Source: a phage. Taken from it: 41,039 bases of DNA. A model generated the notes under the pieces. That model was not told the DNA's origin, ran no database searches, and saw nothing but the letters and a program-made list of their open reading frames with translations. The translations under genes and the position numbers were made by a program. The stretch lies in sequence record NC_093712.1. One strand, given 5' to 3'. Positions 1 to 41,039 of the stretch are shown here, piece by piece (the stretch's first letter is position 1; every line of letters starts with the position of its first letter).

Positions 1-121
1 CGTCTTCATCTTTAAGCGCGTCGAAGTCGTCGGTGACATCAGTATCATCGCCAATCTCGCCCAGGTAGACGCGCACCGGCACGCCGTCCGGGATACGGTT
101 AACGACAAACTCCATCGGCAT
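1..121 (-). CDS. tail assembly protein, lambda gpI-like (N-terminal 40 codons only; continues past window start)
   Basis: Manual translation of minus strand from ATG at 121..119 gives MPMEFVVNRIPDGVPVRVYLGEIGDDTDVTDDFDALKDED with no stop to position 1; sits directly downstream of K-like gene as in lambda M-L-K-I-J order. Confidence 0.35.
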   Translation of the reverse strand, partial: MPMEFVVNRIPDGVPVRVYLGEIGDDTDVTDDFDALKDED

Positions 122-1055: not shown

Positions 1056-1552
1056 TGCATCGGGTCCCAAATTCGTGGAAACGTTGATTGTGCAGTTCCG
1101 TAGGCTTTAAGGAAACACCCCAGCCCGTCACCATAGCAACCGTACAAATCAGGCAGATTGTTAATCAGGCACTGGTTCTCAAGATCCTGGAACGGTGATT
1201 TCTCAGCGGTTGCCGTGAAGGTAATTGTCCAGTTAATCCCGTCTTCGGTAGACTCGGCGATGGTTGACGTGATTGTTACCTGGTAGTCCTCGATACCCAT
1301 GCCGAAGTCGTGCGCCATCCAGAAACTTGACGCACCGCCGTCTACTTTTTCGAGAAACGACAGAAACGCCTGCCGCCCAAGCGCTGATGTAATCAGGGTT
1401 ACGCTTATCGGGAACACGTCGTAATACGTGTCGCGCCCCTGACGTACACCGCCACCAGCTAAATCAACACTCCAGACGTTGTTACGTCTGGTCATTGAGT
1501 AGCCTTTCGATACCACCGGCTTAAGGCTACGTGGGAAATATAAGTCGCTCAT
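1052..1552 (-). CDS. minor tail protein (gpM / distal tail position)
   Basis: 166-aa ORF immediately downstream of tape measure gene, start overlaps TMP stop. Confidence 0.55.
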   Translation of the reverse strand: MSDLYFPRSLKPVVSKGYSMTRRNNVWSVDLAGGGVRQGRDTYYDVFPISVTLITSALGRQAFLSFLEKVDGGASSFWMAHDFGMGIEDYQVTITSTIAESTEDGINWTITFTATAEKSPFQDLENQCLINNLPDLYGCYGDGLGCFLKAYGTAQSTFPRIWDPMQ

Positions 1553-3864
1553 TATTTGAACCCCGGCGCGTTTCTTGTGGCCTTGCGGGCCTTGCTAATC
1601 TTACTGTTGCTGTTCTGCAAAGAGGCCGCCACTTGCTCTTCAATGATGATACGCAAACGGCCTTCATCATCTTGTTCAGTGGATACGTTGCCAATCTGAG
1701 AACTCGTGTTGTTTACGATGGTAACATTAGACGGTCCGGAAGAAGACCCGTTTTGCCCCATAATTTCTTTCATCTGCTGCGCGGTGCGAACACGCGATGC
1801 CCCCGCGGGCATGATAACCTCAGGTTTACCACGTTCGGCGATGGTGGAAGCCTGCCCCGCGGATAACTGACCGCCCTGTTCACGCGCAGATCTGATAGCG
1901 GAAATCTGCGCCATACCCGCCCCAACGGCAGCGGCGGCGGCTACAGGTGCCAGGAACGGACCGACTACAGGGATAGCTGCCGTGGACTTGTACGCCTCAA
2001 TAGCTGCGGTGTATGTGGCTATAGTGGCCTGTACGATAGCGAATGCCTTATACGCACCAGAAGCCTCGCCCAAAGCCGAACCGATGTTTGAGGCCATGTT
2101 ACCAAAGGCGGTTGCCGTCGCGTCGGCGCGTTTCGTGGCGTACTGCTCGTTGATGGCATTAAGCGCGGCCTGGTACTGCTTCTCGCTAATCAGACCCTGT
2201 TCGCGGTACTTATCTGCGACAGCCAGTTTCTGCTGTTCCTGGATGTCGAGAAGCTCAAGCTCGGCGGCGTTCTGCCCCATAATCTGGGCCATGAAGTCAT
2301 CGCCTTTCTGCTGCTTTTCCTGCTGCTCTTTTCTTTTCTTATCCAGTTCTTCCTGTCTGGCCTGCTCGGCTGTGAGCATAATTTGAGTTTTGGCATCTTC
2401 ATACTGCTGCTGGCTTATCGTCCCAGCGCGGTTGAACTCTTCAAGTTTCGCCAGTTTCTGCTCTTCTGCTGCCGTGATACGAGAAATTTCGTCTCCAGTA
2501 GTGCGGTCGACAGTAGCCAGGAAATCTTCCGCCGCTTTTTTCTGCCGTGCGGCTGCAGTTTCTTCGCGTTTGGCTTGTGCCGCCAGACGTTTCTCGTTAG
2601 ATTTAGCCTCGCGGTCCGCCTTCTCTTTCTCGGTCTTGTCAATGCGGGCGATGTCTTGCTGCGCTTCCGCGTCACGGGCGGCATTATACGCGGCTATCTG
2701 TTCTTTGGTGACAGCTTCACGTTTAGCAAACGCCTGCTTATCAAGTTCAGCTTGCGCCCGGATGCGCTCACGGTCGCTTAAGATGGCGATTTGCTGGTTC
2801 TTAACGATAGCTTCGTTCTGTTCCTGGAATCTCTGCGTGGTTGAGTTGACGTTACGACCAAGATTCTTTTGGGCCTCTGCCGCCGCGTTTGCTGACTTCT
2901 CTGCGTTTTCCAGTGCCGTGGCGTTCTTGTTGGCATTATCGGTGAGGCGGATAAGCTCCGGGTTCAACTGTTTTGTGTTACCCAGCCAGTCGGTAAACAC
3001 ATCGGCGATGCGGCGGGCATTCTCCGCGGTTGGCTCTTTGTTAAACGCGCTCTGCGCCGCTATCATCTCCAGCGCCTGGTCACGGTTAACCCCGAACTTA
3101 CTGCTAAGCTCCGCGATATTCTGCGCCAGCATGTTGACGCCTACGATGTTACCCTCGTAAGTGCCGCCTAGTTTTTCTAACGTGTCGCCTACATCCGCAC
3201 CCTTAGAGACCAGTGCATCGTACTGGCTAATCGCCGACGCCGTGGAGGCTTTCCACGTTTCCCATGATTCTGCGTCCTCACGAACAGCTTTAGCTGTTTG
3301 CTGCGCGATAAGGTCCGCGTTAGCCTTAGCCAGAGCAAGCTGAGTCTCTGCCGCTTCTCGGCTTATTTGGGTAAGCTGGATGAGGCCGTCTGTCAGTTCA
3401 AGAGAGCCGGACGCCGTTTGCTGGAAGGTGTCTTTTAACTGTTTCTGCGCGGCTTCGAGGTCTTTTGAACTCCCTTCCGCCTCTGTTAGCGATTTGTACA
3501 GGACGCCGCCGATTGCGGACGCGAGGGCAATTACCGCTCCCAGTACGGCGCCCCCCGGGCCGAAGGCACCCGCAAGCTGCGAACCTTGCTGACCGATTGC
3601 TACGAATGCGGACGTACCGGACTGCAACTGGACAACCATGTCCTGCACCTGGAAGCCCACCTGCCCGGCGGCGTTACGGAACTTAGCGAAACCGTCAGAG
3701 GCCGCTTTAGAGGTAGCTGTGTTAACCTTATTAACATCCGGGGTCAGCTTGTTTACCGCGGTATCTGCACGGTCTGCGGACGACGCCATAGCGTCAAGCT
3801 GTTTGGCGGCTACGTCAGCGCCTTCTGTTTTTACTCTGGCAATTAGGGAAGCCGTATCAGCCAT
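1552..3864 (-). CDS. tail tape measure protein
   Basis: ~770 aa, Ala/Gln/Glu/Lys-rich coiled-coil-like composition, Gly/Ala-rich hydrophobic segment near C-terminus, located after tail chaperone genes; ATG at 3864 preceded by GAGGG (track start 3879 is TTG). Confidence 0.85.
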   Translation of the reverse strand: MADTASLIARVKTEGADVAAKQLDAMASSADRADTAVNKLTPDVNKVNTATSKAASDGFAKFRNAAGQVGFQVQDMVVQLQSGTSAFVAIGQQGSQLAGAFGPGGAVLGAVIALASAIGGVLYKSLTEAEGSSKDLEAAQKQLKDTFQQTASGSLELTDGLIQLTQISREAAETQLALAKANADLIAQQTAKAVREDAESWETWKASTASAISQYDALVSKGADVGDTLEKLGGTYEGNIVGVNMLAQNIAELSSKFGVNRDQALEMIAAQSAFNKEPTAENARRIADVFTDWLGNTKQLNPELIRLTDNANKNATALENAEKSANAAAEAQKNLGRNVNSTTQRFQEQNEAIVKNQQIAILSDRERIRAQAELDKQAFAKREAVTKEQIAAYNAARDAEAQQDIARIDKTEKEKADREAKSNEKRLAAQAKREETAAARQKKAAEDFLATVDRTTGDEISRITAAEEQKLAKLEEFNRAGTISQQQYEDAKTQIMLTAEQARQEELDKKRKEQQEKQQKGDDFMAQIMGQNAAELELLDIQEQQKLAVADKYREQGLISEKQYQAALNAINEQYATKRADATATAFGNMASNIGSALGEASGAYKAFAIVQATIATYTAAIEAYKSTAAIPVVGPFLAPVAAAAAVGAGMAQISAIRSAREQGGQLSAGQASTIAERGKPEVIMPAGASRVRTAQQMKEIMGQNGSSSGPSNVTIVNNTSSQIGNVSTEQDDEGRLRIIIEEQVAASLQNSNSKISKARKATRNAPGFK

Positions 3865-4237
3865 CTTCTCTGCCCTCAAATATTCCGTCTAAGCCCATGA
3901 TAACCTCGGCTTCGAACAAACTTATGCCGTAACCGGCGACATCACGAAACGCTACCAAATCATGCCATTTGAGCGCATCGCGCGGGATTATAACGATAGT
4001 ATCATCTGTTTCGCGCTGTAGGAATTTAATGGCACGGTATTTCTCGAACACGTCGATAAGAGAAACGGGGCATTCTGGCCCCGTCGTTTCTTTCATCTGC
4101 GGTTCTTTAATCACGCCCATTGCAATCAAAGCCGCCTGGTGCCCCGCCGCGATGTCGTCGAATTGCTTACGCTTGTGACGGTCAACAAAGCACCATTGCG
4201 CAAATTCATACAGCGCTTTTACTTTTCCGAGAGTTTC
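3857..4237 (-). CDS. tail assembly chaperone, -1 frame extension (T part of a G/GT-like pair)
   Basis: Frame -1 relative to 4219..4635 is open from 4237; overlaps end of G-like ORF at GGAAAAGTAA; classic position between major tail and tape measure genes. Confidence 0.45.
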   Translation of the reverse strand, partial: ETLGKVKALYEFAQWCFVDRHKRKQFDDIAAGHQAALIAMGVIKEPQMKETTGPECPVSLIDVFEKYRAIKFLQRETDDTIVIIPRDALKWHDLVAFRDVAGYGISLFEAEVIMGLDGIFEGREDG

Positions 4238-21978: not shown

Positions 21979-22523
21979 CAGAAGTATTCCCCGCACGTTT
22001 TACATACTTTCGTACCGAACGGCGCGGAGCCATCTGTTATTACATAATAGAAACTGTGTTTGCACTCCTGTGTACAGGCTGTAGCCCCATACTCAAGTCC
22101 GTCCCACTCACGCTTGCCGCATTCGCAGCAAAACCGGCTACCGGGCACGTTGTCCTTGCAGCCTTCGGCAATAAACAATCCTGGAGCGATAATCCAATTG
22201 TGGTCATATTCCTGCGTATCTTCTTTTCGGCAACCAGATTGCTCCGAACCGTACGCACCTTTGCGGATAAGTTTGTATGCCTCCACGTCACCAGTAGCCT
22301 TGACCAATGCCAGATGCAACTCCTTAACTTGCCCTGTCAGGTGCGATATGTGCTCAGATTTCTTAATGTTGTCTTCCCGCAACTCCTTAATCTGCGCCGA
22401 CGCATCACGTAACTGATTCTTAAGTGACTGCACCTCATGCGCCAGGTCTTCGCTCCGGCTGTTATTTACCTGCTGCCGTAGCTGGTCGATAAGGTACTCG
22501 AATATTTCGTTTTTAGTGTTCAT
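21978..22523 (-). CDS. coiled-coil protein with C-terminal Cys-rich (zinc-binding-like) domain
   Basis: 181 aa; N-terminal heptad-like region, C-terminal CxxC...CxxC clusters (FCCECGK, VCKTCGEYF). Confidence 0.55.
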   Translation of the reverse strand: MNTKNEIFEYLIDQLRQQVNNSRSEDLAHEVQSLKNQLRDASAQIKELREDNIKKSEHISHLTGQVKELHLALVKATGDVEAYKLIRKGAYGSEQSGCRKEDTQEYDHNWIIAPGLFIAEGCKDNVPGSRFCCECGKREWDGLEYGATACTQECKHSFYYVITDGSAPFGTKVCKTCGEYF

Positions 22524-22641
22524 ATTCTTCGCTCACCCCGTTATAGACGCCGTTGTAGTCCCCGTCGCAGATGAACGGGTAGCGCATATCTTCGTACTCG
22601 TCCTGCAGCTCACCTAAAGTTACTTCGCTATAATCTCTCAT
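22513..22641 (-). CDS. hypothetical small protein (42 aa)
   Basis: Manually found; RBS GAGGAGA; first ORF downstream of promoter at 22701..22667. Confidence 0.3.
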   Translation of the reverse strand: MRDYSEVTLGELQDEYEDMRYPFICDGDYNGVYNGVSEEYEH

Positions 22642-22666
22642 ATTCTGTCTCCTCTCTCGTTCGTGT

Positions 22667-22701
22667 AAATGAATAGTAGCCTATTCTATCTTAGTGTGCA
22701 A
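22667..22701 (-). promoter_or_regulatory. promoter (TTGCAC-17-TACTAT) with operator AATAG-N4-CTATT (22672-22685)
   Basis: Same conserved motif as 4743-4772 and 24153-24188, oriented toward downstream minus-strand genes. Confidence 0.45.
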
Positions 22702-22708
22702 GTAAATT

Positions 22709-22882
22709 TTATTGGTGTGTTATAGAGTCGATGAACGCCAGTAACTCCCTTTCCACTTCTGCTTCTCTTTCTTCAAGCGACCAGGTAGCGAATTCCTCTG
22801 TTGCCGTTGCTAAATCGGTTTTTACGTCAATCATCGTGTCGATTAACGTGATTAGTCGTTCAGCCTGTTCTTTAGTAATCAT
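22709..22882 (-). CDS. hypothetical small acidic protein (57 aa)
   Basis: Manually found ORF MITKEQAERLITLIDTMIDV..., RBS AGGAGA. Confidence 0.4.
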   Translation of the reverse strand: MITKEQAERLITLIDTMIDVKTDLATATEEFATWSLEEREAEVERELLAFIDSITHQ

Positions 22883-23016
22883 TGTTGCATCTCCTGCAAT
22901 AGTCGCTTCGATTGTTGCGTTTGATGAAAGTGTCGCCTTTTGACGACACTAAGTTAAAGCTGTACGCTGCTGTGTAGCAGCGTAAGTCACTCAGTAAAAT
23001 CCCAAACTATTGAACA

Positions 23017-23211
23017 TCACACTTCCGGCGGCTCTGGTAACGGCATCCAGTGCGACGGTTCACATACCCCCTCAACACCATCAATGTAAAAGAATTGAAA
23101 TAGCCCTTTACCTTTATGAAACCCTACCATCTGCTCTTTTGTATCAGAGCAATAAACCAAAACATCTTCATCCTTTGGCATCCGCTCACTGCACTTAATC
23201 CACTCACCCAT
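23017..23211 (-). CDS. DUF551-like small phage protein
   Basis: 64 aa with WIKCSERMP...HWMPLPEPP pattern typical of DUF551 proteins of enterobacterial phages (recalled). Confidence 0.6.
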   Translation of the reverse strand: MGEWIKCSERMPKDEDVLVYCSDTKEQMVGFHKGKGLFQFFYIDGVEGVCEPSHWMPLPEPPEV

Positions 23212-23214
23212 AAA

Positions 23215-23358
23215 TCACCTCTGATTCGCGATAAACAACACACCAGCTTTCCACGCCCGCCACGCGAGACGCGTCTTAACGTTCAGGTACTCTTTCTTCG
23301 AACCCTTGTTAACCGGCAGACCCTCGACTATAGCCCACCGTTCAAATGCTTCTCTCAT
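23215..23358 (-). CDS. hypothetical small protein (47 aa)
   Basis: Manually translated; ATGA-coupled to upstream ORF. Confidence 0.35.
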   Translation of the reverse strand: MREAFERWAIVEGLPVNKGSKKEYLNVKTRLAWRAWKAGVLFIANQR

Positions 23359-23510
23359 ACCAGAACCTCACATTCATCCCGATACACGAACAATAACGAC
23401 CCTTTGTACTCAATCATAAAACCATAATGGTTGCTGCTGAACGCCAGAAAAACATCACCTACCGAGATACCGAAATCTATAAGCCTGCGGTCAGTTATTC
23501 GGATTCTCAT
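23355..23510 (-). CDS. hypothetical small protein (51 aa)
   Basis: Manually translated ORF MRIRITDRRLIDFGISVGDVF...; starts 4 nt after upstream stop. Confidence 0.35.
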   Translation of the reverse strand: MRIRITDRRLIDFGISVGDVFLAFSSNHYGFMIEYKGSLLFVYRDECEVLV

Positions 23511-23513
23511 AGC

Positions 23514-23705
23514 TCAGTCCTCATCATCTTCTAAGTCTGGGTACACTATGAAATCTCCAACCCTCTGCAACTCCGCACCCGCCATAAAATAGCCAAGTGC
23601 TTCGGCTCTTTCGGAATCGGTTTTAAACTCAGACAAAGGATATCTTTCGTAGAACTTGTTAATTAATAACGCCTGGTCAAACTTAGTCGCATCATAATTT
23701 TTCAT
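23514..23705 (-). CDS. hypothetical small acidic protein; G12 homopolymer sits immediately 5' of its ATG (or inside an N-terminal extension to 23798)
   Basis: ATG at 23705 lies 5 nt after the homopolymer, which may serve as SD-like sequence; the longer track ORF (23514..23798) reads through the tract as RGGGVG. Confidence 0.45.
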   Translation of the reverse strand: MKNYDATKFDQALLINKFYERYPLSEFKTDSERAEALGYFMAGAELQRVGDFIVYPDLEDDED

Positions 23706-23710
23706 ACCAA

Positions 23711-23722
23711 CCCCCCCCCCCC
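23711..23722. repeat. homopolymeric tract, C12 on plus strand (G12 in the mRNA sense)
   Basis: Directly visible: ccaa cccccccccccc gcaacgcg. Confidence 0.9.
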
Positions 23723-23754
23723 GCAACGCGCACACCACATGAACGGTTAAAGTA

Positions 23755-23946
23755 TTATTCATGGCAACCTCCCTCGGAGTCGTCGGCGCGAGCATCATGA
23801 TTCGATGCCGTTTGCTCCCGCACTTCTACCATCCTTCCTACCACTGCGGCATAATACACATACCGCTTTATTGCGTAATCTTTATTACTTGTCGTCTCTG
23901 TTATGACCCCGTCGACGTATACGTCGTAAATTAATTCCCCCATCAC
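23755..23946 (-). CDS. hypothetical small protein (63 aa)
   Basis: ORF track; ATGA-type coupling with upstream ORF. Confidence 0.45.
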   Translation of the reverse strand: MMGELIYDVYVDGVITETTSNKDYAIKRYVYYAAVVGRMVEVREQTASNHDARADDSEGGCHE

Positions 23947-24125
23947 TTCGCCCCTTTGAATTTAAAATTGTTGCCGATGAGTTCTAAATTATCGTGACGA
24001 ACATAACCATGTTTCCTCCGTATAAGGCTAAATACGGCGACAACACCATATTCATCCTCGTCTTTGGTAGCTATTACGTGTTGCCGGCTGCGCTTTGTTT
24101 TTGCCAACTGACCATTCTTAAACAT
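23943..24125 (-). CDS. hypothetical small basic protein (60 aa)
   Basis: ATG at 24125 preceded by AGGAG (track start 24134 is GTG); first gene downstream of promoter at 24188..24153. Confidence 0.45.
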   Translation of the reverse strand: MFKNGQLAKTKRSRQHVIATKDEDEYGVVAVFSLIRRKHGYVRHDNLELIGNNFKFKGAK

Positions 24126-24152
24126 AACCCTCACTCCTCTGTCTCGTTTCGA

Positions 24153-24188
24153 TAAGTGAATAGTATCCTATTATGTTGGGGTGTGCAA
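24153..24188 (-). promoter_or_regulatory. early-left promoter (TTGCAC-17-TACTAT) with operator AATAG-N4-CTATT (24159-24172)
   Basis: Conserved motif; -35 at 24188..24183, -10 at 24165..24160; RBS and ATG follow ~30 nt downstream on minus strand. Confidence 0.5.
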
Positions 24189-24337
24189 GAGATTAGTTAC
24201 GTTGCCGTTGTGATTCTTTTGTTTAATGGGGTAGCGAGCGAAACGAACGTGGTGCCGGAGGCACCAAGAGTGAGTGAGTGAGCTTGCGGTTCTGACCTAC
24301 GGCAAATCAATAACTTAGATATTTAGGCGGGGAATTA

Positions 24338-24482
24338 TAATAGACTATGGCCCTTCCGAATGCGTCAGCGAGGCTCACTCCACACGTCGAGACGTGCTCG
24401 TTTCGCCTGCCGCGCACCGCGGTCGCTTGTTCATACTTCACAAGCTCAGGACGAGCTTACCATATTTCTCAGTAAAAGTCAA
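24338..24482 (-). promoter_or_regulatory. conserved promoter plus structured leader element, copy 2 (TTGACT-17-TGnTAAGCT at 24482..24454)
   Basis: Near-identical blocks to 13363-13522; hairpin CACGTC-GA-GACGTG (24373-24386) replaces GGAC-TTAC-GTCC of copy 1 at the same relative position; perfect TATAAT on plus strand at 24336-24341 is an alternative reading. Confidence 0.5.
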
Positions 24483-24589
24483 TACCAGTAGCATCTTTTG
24501 CATCTTAGTAACTTTGTGTGGTGTTTTGGTTGCTTTTACATTCCCGCTATCCTATACTCGGTTCCACCAAACAAACAGGAGATATGAAA

Positions 24590-24772
24590 ATGCCGCATTA
24601 CATGACACAGAATGAAGTAGCTGAACGTATCGGGGTGACACGTCAGACAATTAATAACTGGCTGCGCAGTGGTAAATTCCCGGATTGCTGTATTAAGGTT
24701 ATGGGTCGCCGTTTACCGGGAACATTCGACCGTAATAAAGTTGAAGCATGGATTAAGGAGAACGTGAAATGA
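24590..24772 (+). CDS. small HTH DNA-binding protein (AlpA/excisionase-like HTH)
   Basis: ATG at 24590 with AGGAG RBS (track ORF starts upstream at 24518); MTQNEVAERIGVTRQTINNWLRSGKFP is a typical HTH_17-type motif. Confidence 0.6.
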   Translation: MPHYMTQNEVAERIGVTRQTINNWLRSGKFPDCCIKVMGRRLPGTFDRNKVEAWIKENVK

Positions 24773-24981
24773 TTGGGCGTATGGGTTGTTACTTTGAAAA
24801 CGGTAAAGTTAAATACTGGTTTAAGTTTGCGTCAGAAATTACTGACAGCGGATTCTATGCAGAAATATGTAAGCCTAATCATTTGTCGGAACCGACGCGC
24901 ATTATTAAGATGCCAGTAGATGTGTTAAGTAAATGCCGTTTCTATGATTCCGAGCGCGCGTGGTTTTCTGGTTGTAAATAA
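24769..24981 (+). CDS. hypothetical protein (70 aa)
   Basis: ATGA-coupled to upstream HTH gene. Confidence 0.5.
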   Translation: MIGRMGCYFENGKVKYWFKFASEITDSGFYAEICKPNHLSEPTRIIKMPVDVLSKCRFYDSERAWFSGCK

Positions 24982-25049
24982 AAGAAACCCCAACGCCAGA
25001 ACGTCGGGGTTGAAGCACAAATCATCAAAGTAAGCCCAAGGATTATACA

Positions 25050-33890: not shown

Positions 33891-33920
33891 TCACACACCA
33901 ACAATATAAGGAATTGAGAA

Positions 33921-34115
33921 ATGAAACACGAATATGACCGCAAACCAGCACGTGACATCGTACCTGGCGATATGATTTTCAACGTTAAGACCCGCCACCC
34001 TGTTGCCGTTGATACGGTGTTCGTCGAGTCGAACGGTAAACTGGTTATCGAAGATGTAACGGGCAACGTTACCGCGTTCGGGCGTAAAGAGCTGGTACTC
34101 TACGTTAAGGATTGA
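33921..34115 (+). CDS. hypothetical protein (64 aa)
   Basis: ORF track; RBS AAGGAA. Confidence 0.5.
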   Translation: MKHEYDRKPARDIVPGDMIFNVKTRHPVAVDTVFVESNGKLVIEDVTGNVTAFGRKELVLYVKD

Positions 34116-34117
34116 GC

Positions 34118-35542
34118 ATGTCTAAATTTATCCGTCGAGAGTACCAGAAGCTCATGACTTCGTTCATGTTGCAACACCCTCGCTGTAATATCTGGTGCGG
34201 CATGGGAGGGGGTAAAACCTCCTCTACTATGTGGGTGCTCAATCGACTGTTCCGTAATGGGCAACTTAATGACGACGACCGAGTGTTAATTCTGGCCCCT
34301 TTACGTGTTGCGTCCGGTACGTGGCCCGCAGAACAAGAGAAATGGAACTTCCCTTGTCTGCGTGTCGTCGATGCGACCGGTTCAGAGAAGCGCCGCATCG
34401 CGGCGCTGGAGTCAGATGCTAACGTGGTGTGTACCAACTACGAAGTTATCGAGTGGCTGATTGACTACTACGGCAAAGACGACTGGCCTTTTACGGTTAT
34501 CGTTGCAGATGAGAGTACGAAACTGAAGTCATTCCGTAGCCGTTCTGGTGGTAGCAAGCGGGCAAAGGCGCTCAGCAAAGTGGCGTTCGGTAAAGTTAAG
34601 CGTTTCATCAATCTGACGGGCACACCGTCGCCTAACGGCCTCAAAGACCTGTGGGGCCAGAACTGGTTTATCGACGCTGGCGAGCGCCTCGGTTCATCGT
34701 ACACTGCGTTCACCGACCGCTGGTTCAACTCTGTGCAAAAAGGTAAGTCGGTGATGGCGCGGGAGTATCATGCGCGTCCTGGTGCAGATAATGAGATCCA
34801 CCAGAAGATGAAGGACATTAGTCTCACGATTGACGCCGCTGAGTGGTTCGGTTGTGAAGCGCCTATTATAGTGCCGGTTGAAATCGACCTGCCGAAGAAG
34901 GCGCGTCAGGCGTACATCGATATGGAGGAGAAGTTATTCGCGGAACTGGAGAGCGGAGAAGTTGAAGCGGCTAACGCGGCGGCGAAGACGTCAAAGTGTT
35001 TGCAGATTGCCTCCGGTGCCGTATATGTGTCGGGGCCAGACGGTGAGGCAACCAAAGACTGGGAGAAAGTACACGATACGAAACTGGACGCGCTTGAGTC
35101 GATTGTTGAGGAGCTACAGGGCGCACCGTTACTTGTGGCTTATCAGTTCAAGCACGAACTGGAGCGCATCCTTAAGCGATTTCCGCAGGCTCAGGCGTTT
35201 GCCAAAGGAGCTAAGGGCAATAAACAGATGGAAGCGTGGAATAGAGGCGAAATAGAGATTTTGTGCGTGCATCCTGCGTCAGCAGGCCATGGTTTGAATT
35301 TACAGGACGGCGGACATCATCTGGCGTTTATTTCGCAAGGGTGGAACCTTGAGCACTATTTGCAGGTTGTTGAGCGTATAGGGCCTGTACGCCAGAAGCA
35401 GGCAGGCCACGAGCGCCCGGTGTTCCTCTATCACATCGTTGCTAAAGACACGCTGGACGAGGTTGTTGCCTCGCGCACTGACGAGAAGAAATCGGTACAG
35501 GAAGAGTTGCTTAACTACATGAAGAGACGAGGTAAGAAATGA
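34118..35542 (+). CDS. SNF2/DEAD-like superfamily 2 helicase
   Basis: Walker A GMGGGKTS, DEAD-like VIVADEST, C-terminal helicase-type motifs; ATG at 34118. Confidence 0.75.
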   Translation: MSKFIRREYQKLMTSFMLQHPRCNIWCGMGGGKTSSTMWVLNRLFRNGQLNDDDRVLILAPLRVASGTWPAEQEKWNFPCLRVVDATGSEKRRIAALESDANVVCTNYEVIEWLIDYYGKDDWPFTVIVADESTKLKSFRSRSGGSKRAKALSKVAFGKVKRFINLTGTPSPNGLKDLWGQNWFIDAGERLGSSYTAFTDRWFNSVQKGKSVMAREYHARPGADNEIHQKMKDISLTIDAAEWFGCEAPIIVPVEIDLPKKARQAYIDMEEKLFAELESGEVEAANAAAKTSKCLQIASGAVYVSGPDGEATKDWEKVHDTKLDALESIVEELQGAPLLVAYQFKHELERILKRFPQAQAFAKGAKGNKQMEAWNRGEIEILCVHPASAGHGLNLQDGGHHLAFISQGWNLEHYLQVVERIGPVRQKQAGHERPVFLYHIVAKDTLDEVVASRTDEKKSVQEELLNYMKRRGKK

Positions 35543-35676
35543 ACATCCTAGCCCCGATTCCGGCATTGCAAAAACGTATCAAGGAACTCGAAGAGGAGGT
35601 TCTACGACTACGACAACAGAGGGATGCCGCTAATGCACAACTGGCGTTTGTACTGGAGAAGCTATCAGAAGAGTAG
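35539..35676 (+). CDS. hypothetical small coiled-coil protein (45 aa)
   Basis: Manually found; ATGA-coupled to helicase stop. Confidence 0.35.
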   Translation: MNILAPIPALQKRIKELEEEVLRLRQQRDAANAQLAFVLEKLSEE

Positions 35677-35680
35677 AGAA

Positions 35681-35710
35681 AAGGCCCCGTTTGGGGCCTT
35701 AGTTTTATTT
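35681..35710. terminator. bidirectional rho-independent terminator between convergent replication operon and tailspike gene
   Basis: AAGGCCCC-GTTT-GGGGCCTT with T-runs on both strands. Confidence 0.75.
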
Positions 35711-38659
35711 ATCTTCTAGTGCTGCCAGCCTCTTCTCGAACTCGCGCATCTTCTTACGCTGATAGGCAATCTCTATGAAGAACATCTGGTCCGCCCTAAC
35801 CCCCCATCTGCCGCCGGGAGGGGATACTTGTACAGTCTGGCCATCTTCATCAATATCATACGCAGCTTCAATTGAGTCGTAGCACAAGAAAGCATATTTA
35901 CACTCGGTAGAATCTTTCTCCATAAGCCCATGGTTGACCAAGATGTCTCGCACATCTTGGGCTATCACACCGAAGTGTATCCTTGCAGTGTCACCCTTGA
36001 TTGCTAGGCTTTCAAGCCACTTAAAAGATATTACATGTATATCCTCCCATGCGGTAAGGAGTTGTCCCTCAATTTCCTCTTTGTTCGTCTTAAGTGTACC
36101 ATCAGACGTGTTTATCGTACCGGTGGCCGCGTACACCGTAGTCCACCTATTACCTGCCGAACCTAAAGACACTTTCGAGTCTAAGTAAGGAAGAAAATTG
36201 TTGTATGAGTAGAAGCCTCCTGACGCATACATAATAGCCCTGTTAGGCTTTGCATGGTTTGCCCCGTACAGTTGCAGCAACGCACCATCGGAACTGGATG
36301 CACCATCACCACCGCTAACTATCAGTCTTTGACCCGATGGGGTTTTAGTGGGGACTGTTTTTGAAATCAGCCCGTAATCACCATCAAACCGTGCGCGCAC
36401 GGCAGACTGTTGTGTACCATCGTATTCCAGCCCCGTTACATGCAGGGAGTACACGCTTACATCATTGTCAAACGTTAAAGGTGCTTCTACATGGCGTACA
36501 CCATCTACCCCCATGGCGACAGGTATTGTACGGTTAGGAGTTGCTCCGTATTTGAAATCACGTGATACGTACGGGTGGTCTTCAATCTTTATCCGGTAGC
36601 TATATAAGTCAGCCGGATGCCCATCATGTTTGTACCATAACCTCGCACTGTTATCCCCTATGCTCCAGGGAGAGAAGAAGTCTTCCCCACCAAAGATATA
36701 GTACAACCAGCCATCTTTAACACAGACCGAGCCGACGCCGACAGCAGTGTTAACGATATGACCCTGGTATATTTGGTCGGTAATATTAAACCACTGAACA
36801 TCATCTAAAGATGAAGGCCAGGACGACACATTAACTTTGCACATAAAGGTCCTCGGATACGAACCTTCATAGCGGCTGTCCTGCTCGCCACCTTCCCACT
36901 CACCAAAGGCACGTTCTGTACCAAAGATGTATAGATAGTCACCTACTTTAGCGAACGGAAGATTGGAGTGATGTACATTGTCCGGAAATCGCAAGTAGCT
37001 CCAGTTTTGCCCAGAATCGGTGCTCATCGCCAGTGTAGAGCCAGGGGAAGTAGGTAATGTGCCGCGTGTGGTAAGGTATAACACACCACCATAACTTTTC
37101 ACGCACGGCTCAGAAGCGTTGTCAGCGTATGCCTGAGCGACAGTGCGACGAACGAATACGCCAGGATTGTCATACACGTTACTAAAATACAAGACACCGA
37201 GACGCCTAGGGGACACATCGCCGTTGTGATAGCCGACAGCGATAGTGTAGTTAACATCATCTATAACCGCAAAACTATGTGTCTCCGTGACACACAAATC
37301 AGCGTTAGTGGAGTATGCTACCCCAGGCAATTCGGTAATTTCCCACGGGCTGTCCCAGAATCGCGTTGCGAAGTTCCAGGTAACACCCGCATTGTTTATG
37401 GTGGAACTCGCCGGGCTTGAGAGCGTAACAGTGAACGTATTTCGGTTAATTATAGACGAAACCGTCATATTACCCGATACGCCAGTTGCCGATGTATTAG
37501 AGAAGTTAACCGCATCTCCTGCTTTTAGGCCATGATTTTCTATGACAATGGTAGCAGTAGTGGAGCCAGAACTAATAGTTATTCCGCCGGTTGGGTGTCT
37601 AAAATACGGCATTGGGCGTGACCAAAGTTCTGCCTTCTTCATCCGCATATTAGATAAGTAGCGGGTTTCTATAACGGCATATAATCGGTTGCCGCACGTA
37701 CCCATGCTCATGCAGTGGTAGTTAACTCTGTCCGTAGAAACACTAGCATTATAGTCAGCATGGATTGGAGTCAACCATTCAGGCATTGACCAAGTCTGCC
37801 CGTCGTCTCCAGAGCGAACCCAAGCTACATGTAAGTTTTGAACACCATGTCGTTCGCCCGCCATAAACGGGGCGTAAATAACATGGTCGTAGACGAAAGT
37901 TTTATCCTGCGTCCATGCGTTGTAGAACGGGGTATCCGTCACCTTAGTTAGTGAGCCGTTAAAGAAGCCATCAGCTACATAAGTAAGCGGTTGCCCGGCT
38001 ACGCGCTCGTAAACGAATGCAGCATTCTTAAATTTACTAATGTCAGGTAATTGGGAAACTTTATAAGTCAAACCCCTGCCGTCTATAATCCAATTGTTGA
38101 GGGAAGCTGCTAATACATTAAAAATAGATTGAGTATCATCAGTTACGCCGTCGCCCACGGCGCCCCATGCGCGCGGGTCGTATTCGTCCTTCCATCGCGC
38201 CACATGTAAATCTGGGTACAGAATTGCACCGTTTACATCAGATATTTGCTGCCGCAGTATGACCGACCCGACAGGCTGCCACGCCCCATCTGCCACGCCA
38301 CCGGTGGACTGCGGAGAAGATGACGCTGGGATAATTTTTGGTAGAGCACCCAACCAATAGTACCAATCCCCGTCACCGCCAGAGGACGACGGCCACAAAA
38401 CTGCGGTGTTTCGGTCGTTAGCGGATAGTGTACCGCCTGACGTGAAATCAAAATCTGCCAGTTTAAAACCAGCATCACGCAACACGGCAGGTAACGTCTT
38501 CTGGGTCTGTCCAGTAACCTGATTTGTCGCGTAATCAATATCGGCACCACCGGCGACACCGCCGGATTTGCCAGTGATAACCTCGGCCTCGAAAATCTGA
38601 TGTTTCTTGGCGGTTTGTAAATCCGCCAGGCTTAAAACGTCACCGCATCCGCTTGACAT
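35705..38659 (-). CDS. tailspike: sialidase-fold depolymerase (endosialidase-like) with C-terminal intramolecular chaperone domain
   Basis: 984 aa; two Asp-boxes SGDDGQTW and STDSGQNW; C-terminal TINTSDGTLKTNKEEI...FKWLE resembles the self-cleaving chaperone domain of K1-phage endosialidases and T5 L-shaped fibre (recalled). Confidence 0.6.
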   Translation of the reverse strand: MSSGCGDVLSLADLQTAKKHQIFEAEVITGKSGGVAGGADIDYATNQVTGQTQKTLPAVLRDAGFKLADFDFTSGGTLSANDRNTAVLWPSSSGGDGDWYYWLGALPKIIPASSSPQSTGGVADGAWQPVGSVILRQQISDVNGAILYPDLHVARWKDEYDPRAWGAVGDGVTDDTQSIFNVLAASLNNWIIDGRGLTYKVSQLPDISKFKNAAFVYERVAGQPLTYVADGFFNGSLTKVTDTPFYNAWTQDKTFVYDHVIYAPFMAGERHGVQNLHVAWVRSGDDGQTWSMPEWLTPIHADYNASVSTDRVNYHCMSMGTCGNRLYAVIETRYLSNMRMKKAELWSRPMPYFRHPTGGITISSGSTTATIVIENHGLKAGDAVNFSNTSATGVSGNMTVSSIINRNTFTVTLSSPASSTINNAGVTWNFATRFWDSPWEITELPGVAYSTNADLCVTETHSFAVIDDVNYTIAVGYHNGDVSPRRLGVLYFSNVYDNPGVFVRRTVAQAYADNASEPCVKSYGGVLYLTTRGTLPTSPGSTLAMSTDSGQNWSYLRFPDNVHHSNLPFAKVGDYLYIFGTERAFGEWEGGEQDSRYEGSYPRTFMCKVNVSSWPSSLDDVQWFNITDQIYQGHIVNTAVGVGSVCVKDGWLYYIFGGEDFFSPWSIGDNSARLWYKHDGHPADLYSYRIKIEDHPYVSRDFKYGATPNRTIPVAMGVDGVRHVEAPLTFDNDVSVYSLHVTGLEYDGTQQSAVRARFDGDYGLISKTVPTKTPSGQRLIVSGGDGASSSDGALLQLYGANHAKPNRAIMYASGGFYSYNNFLPYLDSKVSLGSAGNRWTTVYAATGTINTSDGTLKTNKEEIEGQLLTAWEDIHVISFKWLESLAIKGDTARIHFGVIAQDVRDILVNHGLMEKDSTECKYAFLCYDSIEAAYDIDEDGQTVQVSPPGGRWGVRADQMFFIEIAYQRKKMREFEKRLAALEDK

Positions 38660-38671
38660 ATAGAGTCCTCT

Positions 38672-41038
38672 TTAATTAAAACCATTGCTGAATCCGTCGG
38701 AGAAACCGCTGCCGTATGGCGCGACGCCGTCGTATTTGTAGAATCCGTCGTCATAGTTGTAGCCCGTAATCTTGACCGTGCGGTCGTCGCCAGGGTCGAT
38801 TGATGAAACAACTATCTTCTGAGCATTATGCCTTGCTTCGTTGCCGAATGAAAACTCAGTTTTTAGTGCGCTATTCCCTGTGTAGATTGCTTCCTCTGGG
38901 GCAGAAAGCATAATCACTTCGCGGTCGTGGCTTCCTTTGATAACAGAGATACTCTGCACAGAGCCGTCGCGCTTCTTAAGAATGATGGAGTGGTCGTCCC
39001 CGGGAGTAAACGTAACAGGCTGTGACAGCGTCAGCGTAAGCCCGTTAACGGCAACAACATAACCATCTTGCGGGGCGATGCGGGAGCCTTTAACTACGCT
39101 GATTACACCGCCGGGTGTAGCGAGAGCGCCTTCTTCTGTAGCTTCGAACTCTACGACAACTTTACTTAACGCATTGCGCTGATAGCGACGCCGCGCCAGC
39201 CAGTACGCCTGCTGATAGTTACGCACGCCTTTCGATTCGTACTCCTCCGTGTTTGCGCCGAGTTCTTCCGGGATATAAATAGCTTCCTGTACGTTAGTAT
39301 CCGGGTCAATGTACGAGAACGACAGGCTATCGTAGGTCGTAGAATCATTAAACGTGCGGGTCCATTTCTCTGTACCAGTAGTTTTGCTGCGGTGAGTGAA
39401 CACCATCTCGGGCCCTGCAACCGGGCGGTCGAAGCGCAACATAATATCCGCGCCTTTACGGTACGCGGTACAGAACACGGCTTCGGCTATAGTCTGAACG
39501 ATGTCCTGCATCGTGGTGTCGTAATCGTCGAACGTGTAGCAGAACTGACCTGCTAATTCGCTGCCAAAATAGGACTCAATTTCTTCTTGCACGGCAAGCA
39601 ACTTATCCATGTTTGCCGTCGTCAGTTCCAGATTACCCACCACCGGGTCGCGAGCCAGTCTGATTAGCGACTGCACCGCTTGAGTGTTCGGTGTCATTAC
39701 GCTATCAAATACGCCGTTACCTAGATATTTGTAGCACATCTCGGTTGCAATCATGCGCAGTTCCGGGTTGTCTATACTGGCTGCACGCGGCGTCTGTTTA
39801 CGGGCGCAATGCACCGTTGTCCTATTGCCGTAGTGAGGGGTGGTGTCAAGTGATTGCCCGTACAGGTTGATGAATGTTATTTCGTCACTTACCGTTCCGC
39901 CGTAATCCTTATCGAAATTCGTTATACGGCGCATACGGGCGCGGAAGCGCGATGCTGTCGGTAACTGCCCGTAAATAGACGTACCGACGTAATCCGTGCT
40001 ATTACCAGTAATCGTAGCCCGTACCGTGTAAATGTCGCTCAACGGGTTACGCTGAGAGTCAATCATCTGGTACTGGAGTTCTACCGTTACGCTGGTGCGA
40101 TTATAGCCGCCGTCATATTTGTAGAGGCCGTTTTGCCCTGCAACGTTAGCAAGCACACGGTCAACTTCCCCGCGCACCATGTAATACCAGTCGGTCAGGG
40201 ATACGTCATAGGTGTTGTTCGGGCCGATAAACGTATCTGAACGCTCTGTTAGCGTGTACGTCTGCCCGCTAGTCAACGCGGCCCAGTTAGACGCCCCGTT
40301 TACGGCTAATCTTACTTCGAAGTCGTCAACGTATAAAACTTCAAACGAGCCGTTCAGGTTAGTGACATCAGCAACGTCAAAGTTGCTCAACACCGCGACA
40401 TCACCGACGCTAAGAAACTCAGAAAAAGCAGAGTCGCCGGACGGGTCATAAATGTAGCCGGTGTTTGAAATACGTTTGGCTGTGCCGTCGGCGCTTGGGT
40501 TAGCCCCGATGTCGTTTGGCGCTTTCAGTACAATACCGTCAACGTCGTCGTTGGAGTATGTCACATAGAGTTTCTGGTCAATGACGTCGCCGATTTGTAG
40601 TTGCGGCGATGCGGTGTTGTTCGGTGACGTGTACGGTGCATATACAGCAACAGAGGAACCGGTGATGTCGCTTATCAGGGTATCGCCTTCCGTGACGCCA
40701 TCAGACTCGATATGCAGATGCCCGCGCCCGGCATCATAGTACGAATACTCCAGCAAAGCACCCGTGGAGTTGAACGCCTTATACGTCTGCATCAGGTCGT
40801 TAGGGATTGTCTGCACAGTCCCGCAGATGTCATAAGAGCGCCCATAGGGGCGCGGCTTGTTGGAGCGGTCTGTGAGACTGTTATTAGGCGATGTTGTCCG
40901 GTTGTTAGTCGCTGTGTAGTTGGCGTTTGCGGACATGTTCAACCCAAACAACTTAGCGATTGGCTTAAGGATAAAACCAAACACCTTACTAACCGCACCG
41001 AGCGCCCCGCTACCCGCACCCTCAATAATGTGGTACAT
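38672..41038 (-). CDS. central tail fibre / host specificity protein, lambda gpJ-like (reading frame reaches window edge; N-terminus may lie outside)
   Basis: 788 aa in window; segment SRFRARMRRITNF resembles conserved FNIRMRRMT region of lambda J; directly upstream of tailspike. Confidence 0.6.
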   Translation of the reverse strand: MYHIIEGAGSGALGAVSKVFGFILKPIAKLFGLNMSANANYTATNNRTTSPNNSLTDRSNKPRPYGRSYDICGTVQTIPNDLMQTYKAFNSTGALLEYSYYDAGRGHLHIESDGVTEGDTLISDITGSSVAVYAPYTSPNNTASPQLQIGDVIDQKLYVTYSNDDVDGIVLKAPNDIGANPSADGTAKRISNTGYIYDPSGDSAFSEFLSVGDVAVLSNFDVADVTNLNGSFEVLYVDDFEVRLAVNGASNWAALTSGQTYTLTERSDTFIGPNNTYDVSLTDWYYMVRGEVDRVLANVAGQNGLYKYDGGYNRTSVTVELQYQMIDSQRNPLSDIYTVRATITGNSTDYVGTSIYGQLPTASRFRARMRRITNFDKDYGGTVSDEITFINLYGQSLDTTPHYGNRTTVHCARKQTPRAASIDNPELRMIATEMCYKYLGNGVFDSVMTPNTQAVQSLIRLARDPVVGNLELTTANMDKLLAVQEEIESYFGSELAGQFCYTFDDYDTTMQDIVQTIAEAVFCTAYRKGADIMLRFDRPVAGPEMVFTHRSKTTGTEKWTRTFNDSTTYDSLSFSYIDPDTNVQEAIYIPEELGANTEEYESKGVRNYQQAYWLARRRYQRNALSKVVVEFEATEEGALATPGGVISVVKGSRIAPQDGYVVAVNGLTLTLSQPVTFTPGDDHSIILKKRDGSVQSISVIKGSHDREVIMLSAPEEAIYTGNSALKTEFSFGNEARHNAQKIVVSSIDPGDDRTVKITGYNYDDGFYKYDGVAPYGSGFSDGFSNGFN

Positions 41039-41039
41039 A

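What the first reader, a model, noticed from the sequence alone, without database searches (positions are those of the whole stretch)
35705..38659. Tailspike with sialidase Asp-boxes and a self-cleaving chaperone-like C-terminus
Two canonical Asp-box motifs (SGDDGQTW, STDSGQNW) indicate a sialidase beta-propeller, and the C-terminal ~110 residues resemble the intramolecular chaperone domain that auto-cleaves in K1-phage endosialidases. This predicts a polysialic-acid capsule depolymerase and hence an E. coli K1-type encapsulated host.
Basis: partly seen in the sequence, partly recalled or inferred. Interest (0 to 1): 0.5.

Follow-up and report, generated by a model that had tools for sequence, protein, structure and literature searches.

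The report
Known K1-capsule endosialidase tailspike (63D/K1G type)

Summary
The ORF at 35705-38659 (minus strand, 984 aa) exists as described. Both Asp-boxes are there: SGDDGQTW at aa 283-290 and STDSGQNW at aa 546-553. They are the only two strict matches in all six frames.

It is a complete endosialidase tailspike:
- Every endosialidase Pfam domain scores far above cutoff, including the beta-propeller (E 2.7e-222), and Peptidase_S74 follows them.
- It is 78% identical over 682 aligned residues to the crystallised phi92 endosialidase (4hiz) and 53% to K1F endoNF.
- The endoNF catalytic residues H350, R549, E581, R596 and R647 are all conserved.
- The C-terminal 132 residues align end to end with the endoNF chaperone structure (3gw6). 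The cleavage serine (Ser852) and lysine (Lys857) are in place.

The protein is 99% identical to the tailspikes of phages K1G and UTI89UKE1. It is 97% identical to the characterised phage 63D endo-N-acetylneuraminidase.

The window is a nearly complete Kagunavirus genome. The gene sits at the end of the tail module. Its first ~85 residues are shared with non-sialidase Kagunavirus tailspikes, which fits a virion anchor.

The feature is already known and of low interest. Corrections are small: the chaperone is ~132 aa rather than ~110, and the lineage is 63D/K1G/phi92-like rather than K1F-like.

The parts
35705..38659 (-). Complete tailspike endosialidase gene (984 aa plus stop codon)
   Evidence: ORF list. 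phrog_1171 tail spike protein, E 2.6e-290. 99.3% nucleotide identity to Kagunavirus LF7074P1 and 99.2% to UTI89UKE1 'tailspike'.
38666..38672 (-). Shine-Dalgarno-like AAGAGGA, 6 nt upstream of the ATG. It overlaps the stop codon of the upstream tail-tip gene, leaving a 12-nt intergenic gap, so the two genes are probably co-transcribed.
   Evidence: Upstream sequence read directly. The 63D record annotates an RBS at the equivalent place.
38405..38659 (-). N-terminal module, aa 1 to ~85: inferred virion-attachment (anchor) domain shared by Kagunavirus tailspikes whatever their enzymatic head
   Evidence: Nearly identical in phage Schulenburg's non-sialidase tailspike, after which similarity collapses. 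Non-sialidase Kagunaviruses match only nt 1-236 up to nt 1-393 of the gene.
38165..38398 (-). Linker or neck module, aa 88-165, with a Tail_spike_N (TSP1/Gp66-type) motif at aa 97-131
   Evidence: Pfam PF18668, 51.6 bits against a cutoff of 25. PDB 9vvr tail spike aligns to aa 88-166 at E 5.7e-22; weaker matches to 4oj5 and 5w6h of CBA120.
37961..38161 (-). Endosialidase N-terminal extension, aa 167-233
   Evidence: Pfam PF12218, E 6.8e-37. This is where the crystallised part of 4hiz and 1v0e begins.
36581..37960 (-). Catalytic beta-propeller, aa 234-693. Catalytic residues are H271 (37847-37849), R485 (37205-37207), E517 (37109-37111), R532 (37064-37066) and R583 (36911-36913).
   Evidence: Pfam PF12217, E 2.7e-222, full length 1-367/367. 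Residue mapping to endoNF H350/R549/E581/R596/R647, with those residues taken.
37790..37813 (-). Asp-box 1, SGDDGQTW (aa 283-290)
   Evidence: Identical in endoNF and phi92 endoN.
37361..37609 (-). Beta-barrel domain inserted in the propeller, aa 351-433
   Evidence: Pfam PF12195, E 5.6e-41, 1-83/83.
37001..37024 (-). Asp-box 2, STDSGQNW (aa 546-553)
   Evidence: Aligned with SRDIGQTW of endoNF and SADLGENW of phi92.
36107..36580 (-). Stalk (triple beta-helix tail-spike domain), aa 694-851
   Evidence: Pfam PF12219, E 4.3e-74, 1-160/160. The 4hiz construct ends exactly at aa 851.
36089..36106 (-). Predicted autocleavage site: Ser852 | Asp853, with Lys857 completing the Ser-Lys dyad (sequence S-D-G-T-L-K)
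   Evidence: Alignment with 3gw6 puts Ser852 opposite the residue that reads Ala there, which from my own knowledge is the S911A non-cleaving mutant, and Lys857 opposite the Lys five residues on. Role and spacing of the dyad.
35708..36103 (-). C-terminal intramolecular chaperone domain (CIMCD, Peptidase S74), aa 853-984, predicted to be released after trimer folding
   Evidence: Pfam PF13884 on aa 852-912. End-to-end alignment with 3gw6 up to the last residue. Weaker matches to the chaperones of phi29 gp12 (3gud) and T5 L-shaped fibre (4uw8).
35681..35700 (.). GC-rich hairpin (AAGGCCCC-GTTT-GGGGCCTT) with T-runs on both strands. Likely a bidirectional terminator between the tailspike gene and the convergent 45-aa ORF and helicase operon.
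   Evidence: Terminator scan. Sequence read directly. An equivalent bidirectional terminator is annotated in phage Schulenburg.

Best explanation
The gene encodes the receptor-destroying tailspike of a K1-capsule-dependent Kagunavirus, a lytic E. coli siphophage of the K1G/K1H/63D group. The inferred mechanism is as follows. The 984-aa precursor trimerises under the direction of its C-terminal intramolecular chaperone domain (aa 853-984). Once the stalk is folded, the Ser852/Lys857 dyad cuts the chain after Ser852 and the chaperone is released. The mature spike (aa 1-852) attaches to the tail tip through its N-terminal ~85-residue anchor, next to the J-like tip protein encoded immediately upstream. 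[quoted passage not shown] Shown here: domain architecture, residue conservation, near-identity to characterised proteins and genomic context. Inferred by homology: trimerisation, autocleavage, polySia hydrolysis and K1 dependence.
For: All four endosialidase Pfam domains plus Peptidase_S74 are above cutoff. Identity is 78.4% over 682 aligned residues to the phi92 endosialidase crystal structure 4hiz, and 52.7% to endoNF. All endoNF residues reported as catalytic or intolerant are conserved: H350, R549, E581, R596, R647, and also Q330, D331, H527, S528, K585 and N699. Both Asp-boxes are present. The chaperone domain aligns end to end with 3gw6, with the Ser and Lys of the dyad conserved. Amino-acid identity is 99% to the K1G and UTI89UKE1 tailspikes and 97% to the 63D endo-N-acetylneuraminidase. 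K1G and K1H hosts are recorded as E. coli O18:K1:H7. Literature reports Kagunaviruses with this spike as K1-dependent and reports that K1-dependent phages encode endosialidase tailspikes. The gene follows the tape-measure, minor-tail and J-like genes in the tail module.
Against: There is no contrary sequence evidence. Activity, autocleavage and host range were not measured for this exact protein. It carries seven substitutions not seen in K1G, UTI89UKE1 or 63D (L187, D560, R673, G776, K829, A845, E919), though none falls on a catalytic or dyad residue. One older report, cited, described the 63D enzyme as a tetramer, which conflicts with the trimer model. The closest solved relative (phi92) is described as able to handle alpha-2,9 as well as alpha-2,8 linkages, so strict alpha-2,8 specificity is assumed, not shown.
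Confidence: 0.95

Rival explanations
1. The spike is an endosialidase with broadened linkage specificity. Like phi92 endoN92, it would cleave alpha-2,9 as well as alpha-2,8 linkages, so the phage could also use K92-type (alternating 2,8/2,9) capsules.
For: The closest solved structure is phi92 endosialidase (78% identity), clearly closer than K1F endoNF at 53%. EndoN92 is described as able to bind both alpha-2,8 and alpha-2,9 linkages.
Against: Every phage carrying a protein at least 97% identical (K1G, K1H, the Smith-Huggins phages P and G, ULINTec2, JSSK01) was isolated on or described as specific for K1 strains. The residues that determine alpha-2,9 activity could not be examined because the primary paper is not held.
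Confidence: 0.15
2. The protein is a generic exo-sialidase or BNR-repeat propeller (GH33-like), or some other glycosidase, and not an endosialidase.
For: Asp-boxes occur in many BNR propellers. There is a weak BNR_2 hit.
Against: BNR_2 scores 14.5 bits, below its cutoff of 31.4. The endosialidase-specific propeller model scores 737.7 bits over its full length. The inserted beta-barrel and the stalk, which are specific to endosialidases, are both present.
Confidence: 0.01
3. The spike is catalytically dead, or a pseudogene remnant that only binds polySia.
For: None, apart from the fact that activity was not measured.
Against: The 984-codon frame is intact, with an RBS and a terminator. All catalytic and dyad residues are conserved. 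Identity to tailspikes of plaque-forming K1 phages is 99%.
Confidence: 0.02

Closest known systems
Tailspike '63D sialidase' of Escherichia phages K1G and K1H (Kagunavirus) and of vB_EcoS-UTI89UKE1 and Kagunavirus LF7074P1
   Same: Same length (984 aa). Nucleotide identity is 98.7-99.3% to LF7074P1, UTI89UKE1 and K1G, and 97.4% to K1H. Amino-acid identity is 99% to K1G and UTI89UKE1. Same position after the J-like tail gene and convergent with the helicase operon.
   Different: Seven private substitutions, none at functional residues. The rest of the genome is only ~93-94% identical to any deposited phage.
Phage 63D endo-N-acetylneuraminidase (AB015437, BAA32990)
   Same: 97% amino-acid identity over the full 984 residues, with the same start and RBS. 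Reviews list it as a characterised endosialidase of an E. coli siphophage.
   Different: About 3% substitutions. The tetrameric state reported for 63D is not what the trimeric homologues predict.
Phage phi92 endosialidase endoN92 (PDB 4hiz)
   Same: 78.4% identity across aa 166-851, covering propeller, barrel and stalk. Asp-boxes and catalytic residues are aligned.
   Different: phi92 is a myovirus with several spikes, so the N-terminal attachment region differs. There is a 4-residue indel (SVST) in a propeller loop. EndoN92 is reported to handle alpha-2,9 linkages as well, which is untested here.
Phage K1F endosialidase endoNF (PDB 1v0e, 3gvl) and its chaperone (PDB 3gw6)
   Same: Same domain order. 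52.7% identity in the catalytic part. Identical catalytic residues and the same Ser/Lys cleavage dyad.
   Different: K1F is a T7-like podovirus with a different N-terminal capsid-binding domain. The chaperone here has about 21 fewer residues across two gaps in the alignment.

Membership tests
Bacteriophage endosialidase (endo-N-acetylneuraminidase; CAZy GH58, family number from my own knowledge) | Endosialidase-type six-bladed beta-propeller catalytic domain | tested here: met
   PF12217, E 2.7e-222, 737.7 bits against a cutoff of 24, full model length. 78% identity to crystal structure 4hiz.
Bacteriophage endosialidase (endo-N-acetylneuraminidase; CAZy GH58, family number from my own knowledge) | Two Asp-box motifs in the propeller | tested here: met
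   aa 283-290 and aa 546-553, aligned to those of endoNF and phi92.
Bacteriophage endosialidase (endo-N-acetylneuraminidase; CAZy GH58, family number from my own knowledge) | Active-site residues equivalent to endoNF H350, R549, E581, R596 and R647 | tested here: met
   H271, R485, E517, R532 and R583 are all identical. Residue list.
Bacteriophage endosialidase (endo-N-acetylneuraminidase; CAZy GH58, family number from my own knowledge) | Beta-barrel domain inserted in the propeller, and a C-terminal stalk domain | tested here: met
   PF12195, E 5.6e-41 (aa 351-433). PF12219, E 4.3e-74 (aa 694-851).
Bacteriophage endosialidase (endo-N-acetylneuraminidase; CAZy GH58, family number from my own knowledge) | Endo-cleavage of alpha-2,8 polysialic acid | not testable with these tools
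   Inferred only, from 97% identity to the characterised 63D enzyme and from K1-dependent relatives.
Peptidase S74 / C-terminal intramolecular chaperone domain (CIMCD) | Domain profile match at the extreme C-terminus, following a triple-beta-helix stalk | tested here: met
   PF13884, 48.9 bits against a cutoff of 22, aa 852-912. 3gw6 aligns to the last residue at E 1.5e-58.
Peptidase S74 / C-terminal intramolecular chaperone domain (CIMCD) | Catalytic Ser and Lys five residues apart at the cleavage site | tested here: met
   Ser852 and Lys857 in TINT-S-DGTL-K, aligned with the corresponding endoNF positions. Dyad role and spacing as described.
Peptidase S74 / C-terminal intramolecular chaperone domain (CIMCD) | Autoproteolytic release of the domain after trimer assembly | not testable with these tools
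   Needs expression and SDS-PAGE or mass spectrometry. The 4hiz crystallised construct ends at the residue before Ser852.
Kagunavirus (Guernseyvirinae), K1-dependent subgroup | Genome-wide nucleotide similarity and synteny with K1G and K1H | tested here: met
   Top hits cover 66-97% of each half of the window at 87.5-94.7% identity, including K1H, UTI89UKE1 and the Smith-Huggins phages G and P. Gene order is the same around the spike.
Kagunavirus (Guernseyvirinae), K1-dependent subgroup | Infection requires the K1 capsule | not testable with these tools
   Predicted from the tailspike type. Reported for relatives.

The most novel reading that the evidence does not exclude
This 63D/K1G-lineage spike is much closer to the dual-linkage phi92 enzyme than to K1F endoNF. 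It may therefore also cleave alpha-2,9 linkages and act non-processively, which would give K1G-type siphophages a latent host range on K92-type capsules. The seven private substitutions might also tune discrimination between K1 strains.
Probability: 0.12. Interest if true: 0.3.

Novelty: already known. Interest (0 to 1): 0.08.

Why it matters
The practical value is in annotation and host prediction. The spike identifies this phage as a K1-capsule-dependent Kagunavirus. That class is reported to outperform K1-independent relatives in models of phage therapy against K1 E. coli, which causes neonatal meningitis, sepsis, urinary tract infection and avian colibacillosis. Its enzyme can be used to strip K1 capsule and as a polysialic-acid reagent. 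No new biology is revealed. The gene, its fold, its catalytic residues and its self-cleaving chaperone have all been described in near-identical proteins.

Tried and rejected
- A generic BNR/GH33 sialidase was considered and rejected. BNR_2 is below its cutoff while the endosialidase-specific models are overwhelming.
- An inactive or degenerate copy was considered and rejected, because the frame is intact and all catalytic and dyad residues are conserved.
- tRNA genes and Rfam families were sought across the window and none were found.
- The primary papers on K1G/K1H (Bull et al. 2010, PMC2843586) and on the phi92 endosialidase (Schwarzer et al. 2015) are not held. The determinants of alpha-2,9 activity therefore could not be mapped.
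- Structure prediction, fold search and the large protein-database searches were deliberately not run. With 78% identity to a crystal structure across the whole catalytic part and 99% identity to annotated phage proteins, they could not change the conclusion.
- One malformed paper search returned an error.
Full report
**Observation**

The window holds a 984-codon ORF on the minus strand at 35705..38659 with an ATG start. An AAGAGGA Shine-Dalgarno-like sequence lies 6 nt upstream, and the gap from the preceding gene's stop codon is only 12 nt.

- SGDDGQTW at aa 283-290 (window 37790-37813)
- STDSGQNW at aa 546-553 (window 37001-37024)

They are the only two strict S-x-D-x-G-x-x-W matches in the six-frame translation of the whole 41 kb, where about 0.17 are expected by chance. 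From the protein's own composition 0.015 are expected in this ORF, and 2 of 20000 shuffles gave two or more.

**What it is**

A Pfam scan gives a complete endosialidase architecture:

| Domain | Residues | Score |
|---|---|---|
| Tail_spike_N | 97-131 | 51.6 bits |
| End_N_terminal | 167-233 | E 6.8e-37 |
| End_beta_propel | 234-693 | E 2.7e-222, full model length |
| End_beta_barrel (inserted in the propeller) | 351-433 | E 5.6e-41 |
| End_tail_spike | 694-851 | E 4.3e-74 |
| Peptidase_S74 | 852-912 | 48.9 bits, cutoff 22 |

The generic BNR_2 model scores below its cutoff, so this is the phage endosialidase family specifically and not a generic sialidase.

Against solved structures, the best match is the phi92 endosialidase 4hiz, covering aa 166-851. 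It is 78.4% identical over 682 aligned residues. K1F endoNF (1v0e, 3gvl) follows at 52.7% identity.

I mapped the endoNF numbering through the alignment. The mapping was checked by requiring H350, E581, R596 and R647 to land on H, E, R and R. The residues reported as catalytic or intolerant to mutation in K1F are H350, R549, E581, R596 and R647. They correspond to H271, R485, E517, R532 and R583 here, and all are identical. So are Q330, D331, H527, S528, K585 and N699. Both Asp-boxes align with those of endoNF and phi92.

**C-terminal chaperone**

Residues 758-984 align with PDB 3gw6, the endoNF stalk plus C-terminal intramolecular chaperone, at E 1.5e-58 and up to the last residue. In phage endosialidases a Ser and a Lys five residues apart form the autocleavage dyad.

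Here the sequence TINT-S852-DGTL-K857 aligns with the corresponding endoNF segment. In 3gw6 the serine position reads Ala, which from my own knowledge is the S911A non-cleaving mutant. The crystallised phi92 construct ends exactly at residue 851. The predicted cut is therefore after Ser852, releasing aa 853-984. Two gaps in the alignment with 3gw6 leave about 21 endoNF chaperone residues unmatched. Weaker matches to the chaperones of phi29 gp12 (3gud) and the T5 L-shaped fibre (4uw8) fit the known spread of this domain.

**N-terminus and modularity**

The first ~85 residues are almost identical in the tailspike of Kagunavirus Schulenburg. That spike has an unrelated central domain and no S74 domain. 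At the nucleotide level, non-sialidase Kagunaviruses match only nt 1-236 up to nt 1-393 of the gene. This is the pattern expected of a conserved virion anchor onto which different receptor-destroying heads are exchanged.

Residues 88-166 resemble the neck region of other tailspikes, namely 9vvr and the CBA120 TSPs.

**Context**

- The window is a nearly complete Kagunavirus genome. Its two halves match K1-phage Kagunaviruses (G AB-2017, P AB-2017, K1H, UTI89UKE1, fKuEco01 and others) over 66-97% of their length at 87.5-94.7% identity.
- The spike gene is the last gene of the tail module: tape measure at 1552-3879, then minor tail proteins, then a J-like tip protein, then the spike.
- The J-like gene is split by the window ends. 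Its first ~40 codons lie at window 1 to ~120 on the minus strand, and the rest at 38672-41039.
- Downstream, a GC-rich hairpin at 35681-35700 with T-runs on both strands separates the spike from a convergent 45-aa ORF and the SNF2-type helicase. Phage Schulenburg has an annotated bidirectional terminator at the same place.

**Comparison with known proteins**

- The gene is 99.3% identical at the nucleotide level to Kagunavirus LF7074P1, 99.2% to vB_EcoS-UTI89UKE1 ('tailspike'), 98.7% to phage K1G ('tailspike 63D sialidase', host E. coli O18:K1:H7) and 96.3% to the original 63D endo-N-acetylneuraminidase gene AB015437.
- At the protein level it is 99% identical to UTI89UKE1 and to K1G, and 97% identical to 63D.
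- Seven substitutions are private to the window (L187, D560, R673, G776, K829, A845, E919). None touches a catalytic or dyad residue.
- The literature lists 63D as a characterised siphophage endosialidase.
- It describes K1G, K1H and JSSK01 as K1-dependent phages whose spikes carry the same four Pfam domains. The JSSK01 spike was expressed recombinantly.
- It shows the Kagunavirus ULINTec2, whose spike gene is 97.5% identical to this one, to be K1-specific in host range.
- The historic Smith-Huggins siphophages P and G carry the same gene.

**Mechanism**

Shown here are the architecture, the residue conservation and the genomic context. The following steps are inferred by homology:
1. The precursor trimerises under the direction of the chaperone domain.
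2. The Ser852/Lys857 dyad cleaves after Ser852.
3. The mature spike is anchored to the tail tip through its N-terminus.
4. The propeller site endo-cleaves alpha-2,8 polysialic acid so the phage can cross the K1 capsule.

**Residual uncertainty**

The closest solved relative, endoN92, is described as able to deal with alpha-2,9 as well as alpha-2,8 linkages. The primary paper is not held, so I could not map the determinants. A broadened specificity therefore cannot be excluded, though all near-identical spikes come from phages isolated on K1 hosts. The old report of a tetrameric 63D enzyme is at odds with the trimeric structures of its homologues: 4hiz is deposited with three chains.

**Verdict**

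The feature is already known, being near-identical to deposited, annotated and characterised proteins. Interest is low. I did not run structure prediction or the large database searches, because 78% identity to a crystal structure and 99% identity to annotated phage proteins already settle the question.

Noticed in passing
window 1-120 (-) and 38672-41039 (-): The window is a near-complete, circularly cut Kagunavirus genome. The J-like tail-tip gene upstream of the spike is split by the window ends: its first ~40 codons (MPMEFVV...KDED) lie at the window start and the rest at the window end. Joining the ends does not restore the frame, because a few bases are missing compared with UTI89UKE1, which reads ...KDEDAVYHII. 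The ATG at 41038 listed as the ORF start is therefore probably not the true start.
   Followed up: partly
window 33891-34115: K1G and UTI89UKE1 carry an 825-nt 'putative C-specific methylase' gene between the helicase and the 63-aa ORF. In the window the 64-aa ORF (33921-34115, phrog_4879) abuts the helicase start at 34112 directly, so this phage lacks the methylase.
   Followed up: partly
window 35705-38659 versus the rest of the window: The tailspike gene is 99.3% identical to its best database match, yet no deposited phage matches the rest of the genome above ~94-95%. LF7074P1, the best spike match, is not among the best backbone matches. Either the spike module has been exchanged recently or it is under stronger conservation. 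The phage may fall below the 95% species threshold.
   Followed up: partly
window 22000-25000: This stretch has the lowest G+C in the window (0.445-0.467) and a sharp negative GC skew (-0.34 at 23001-24000). It is packed with small ORFs, with an apparent switch from minus-strand to plus-strand genes around 24.3-24.5 kb. It is probably the early or regulatory region between divergent transcription units.
   Followed up: no
window 35539-35676 (+): A 45-aa coiled-coil-like ORF (phrog_5915, unknown function) overlaps the helicase stop codon and ends just before the shared terminator hairpin. It is conserved in UTI89UKE1 and Schulenburg.
   Followed up: no
aa 88-189 and aa 819-981 of the spike (window ~38093-38398 and ~35717-36205): PDB 9vvr ('Tail spike protein', 843 aa) matches both the neck region and the C-terminal chaperone of this protein, but not its central catalytic part. 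This is another example of head-swapping between conserved N- and C-terminal modules.
   Followed up: no
whole window: No tRNA or tmRNA genes were found, and no Rfam family reached its gathering score.
   Followed up: yes
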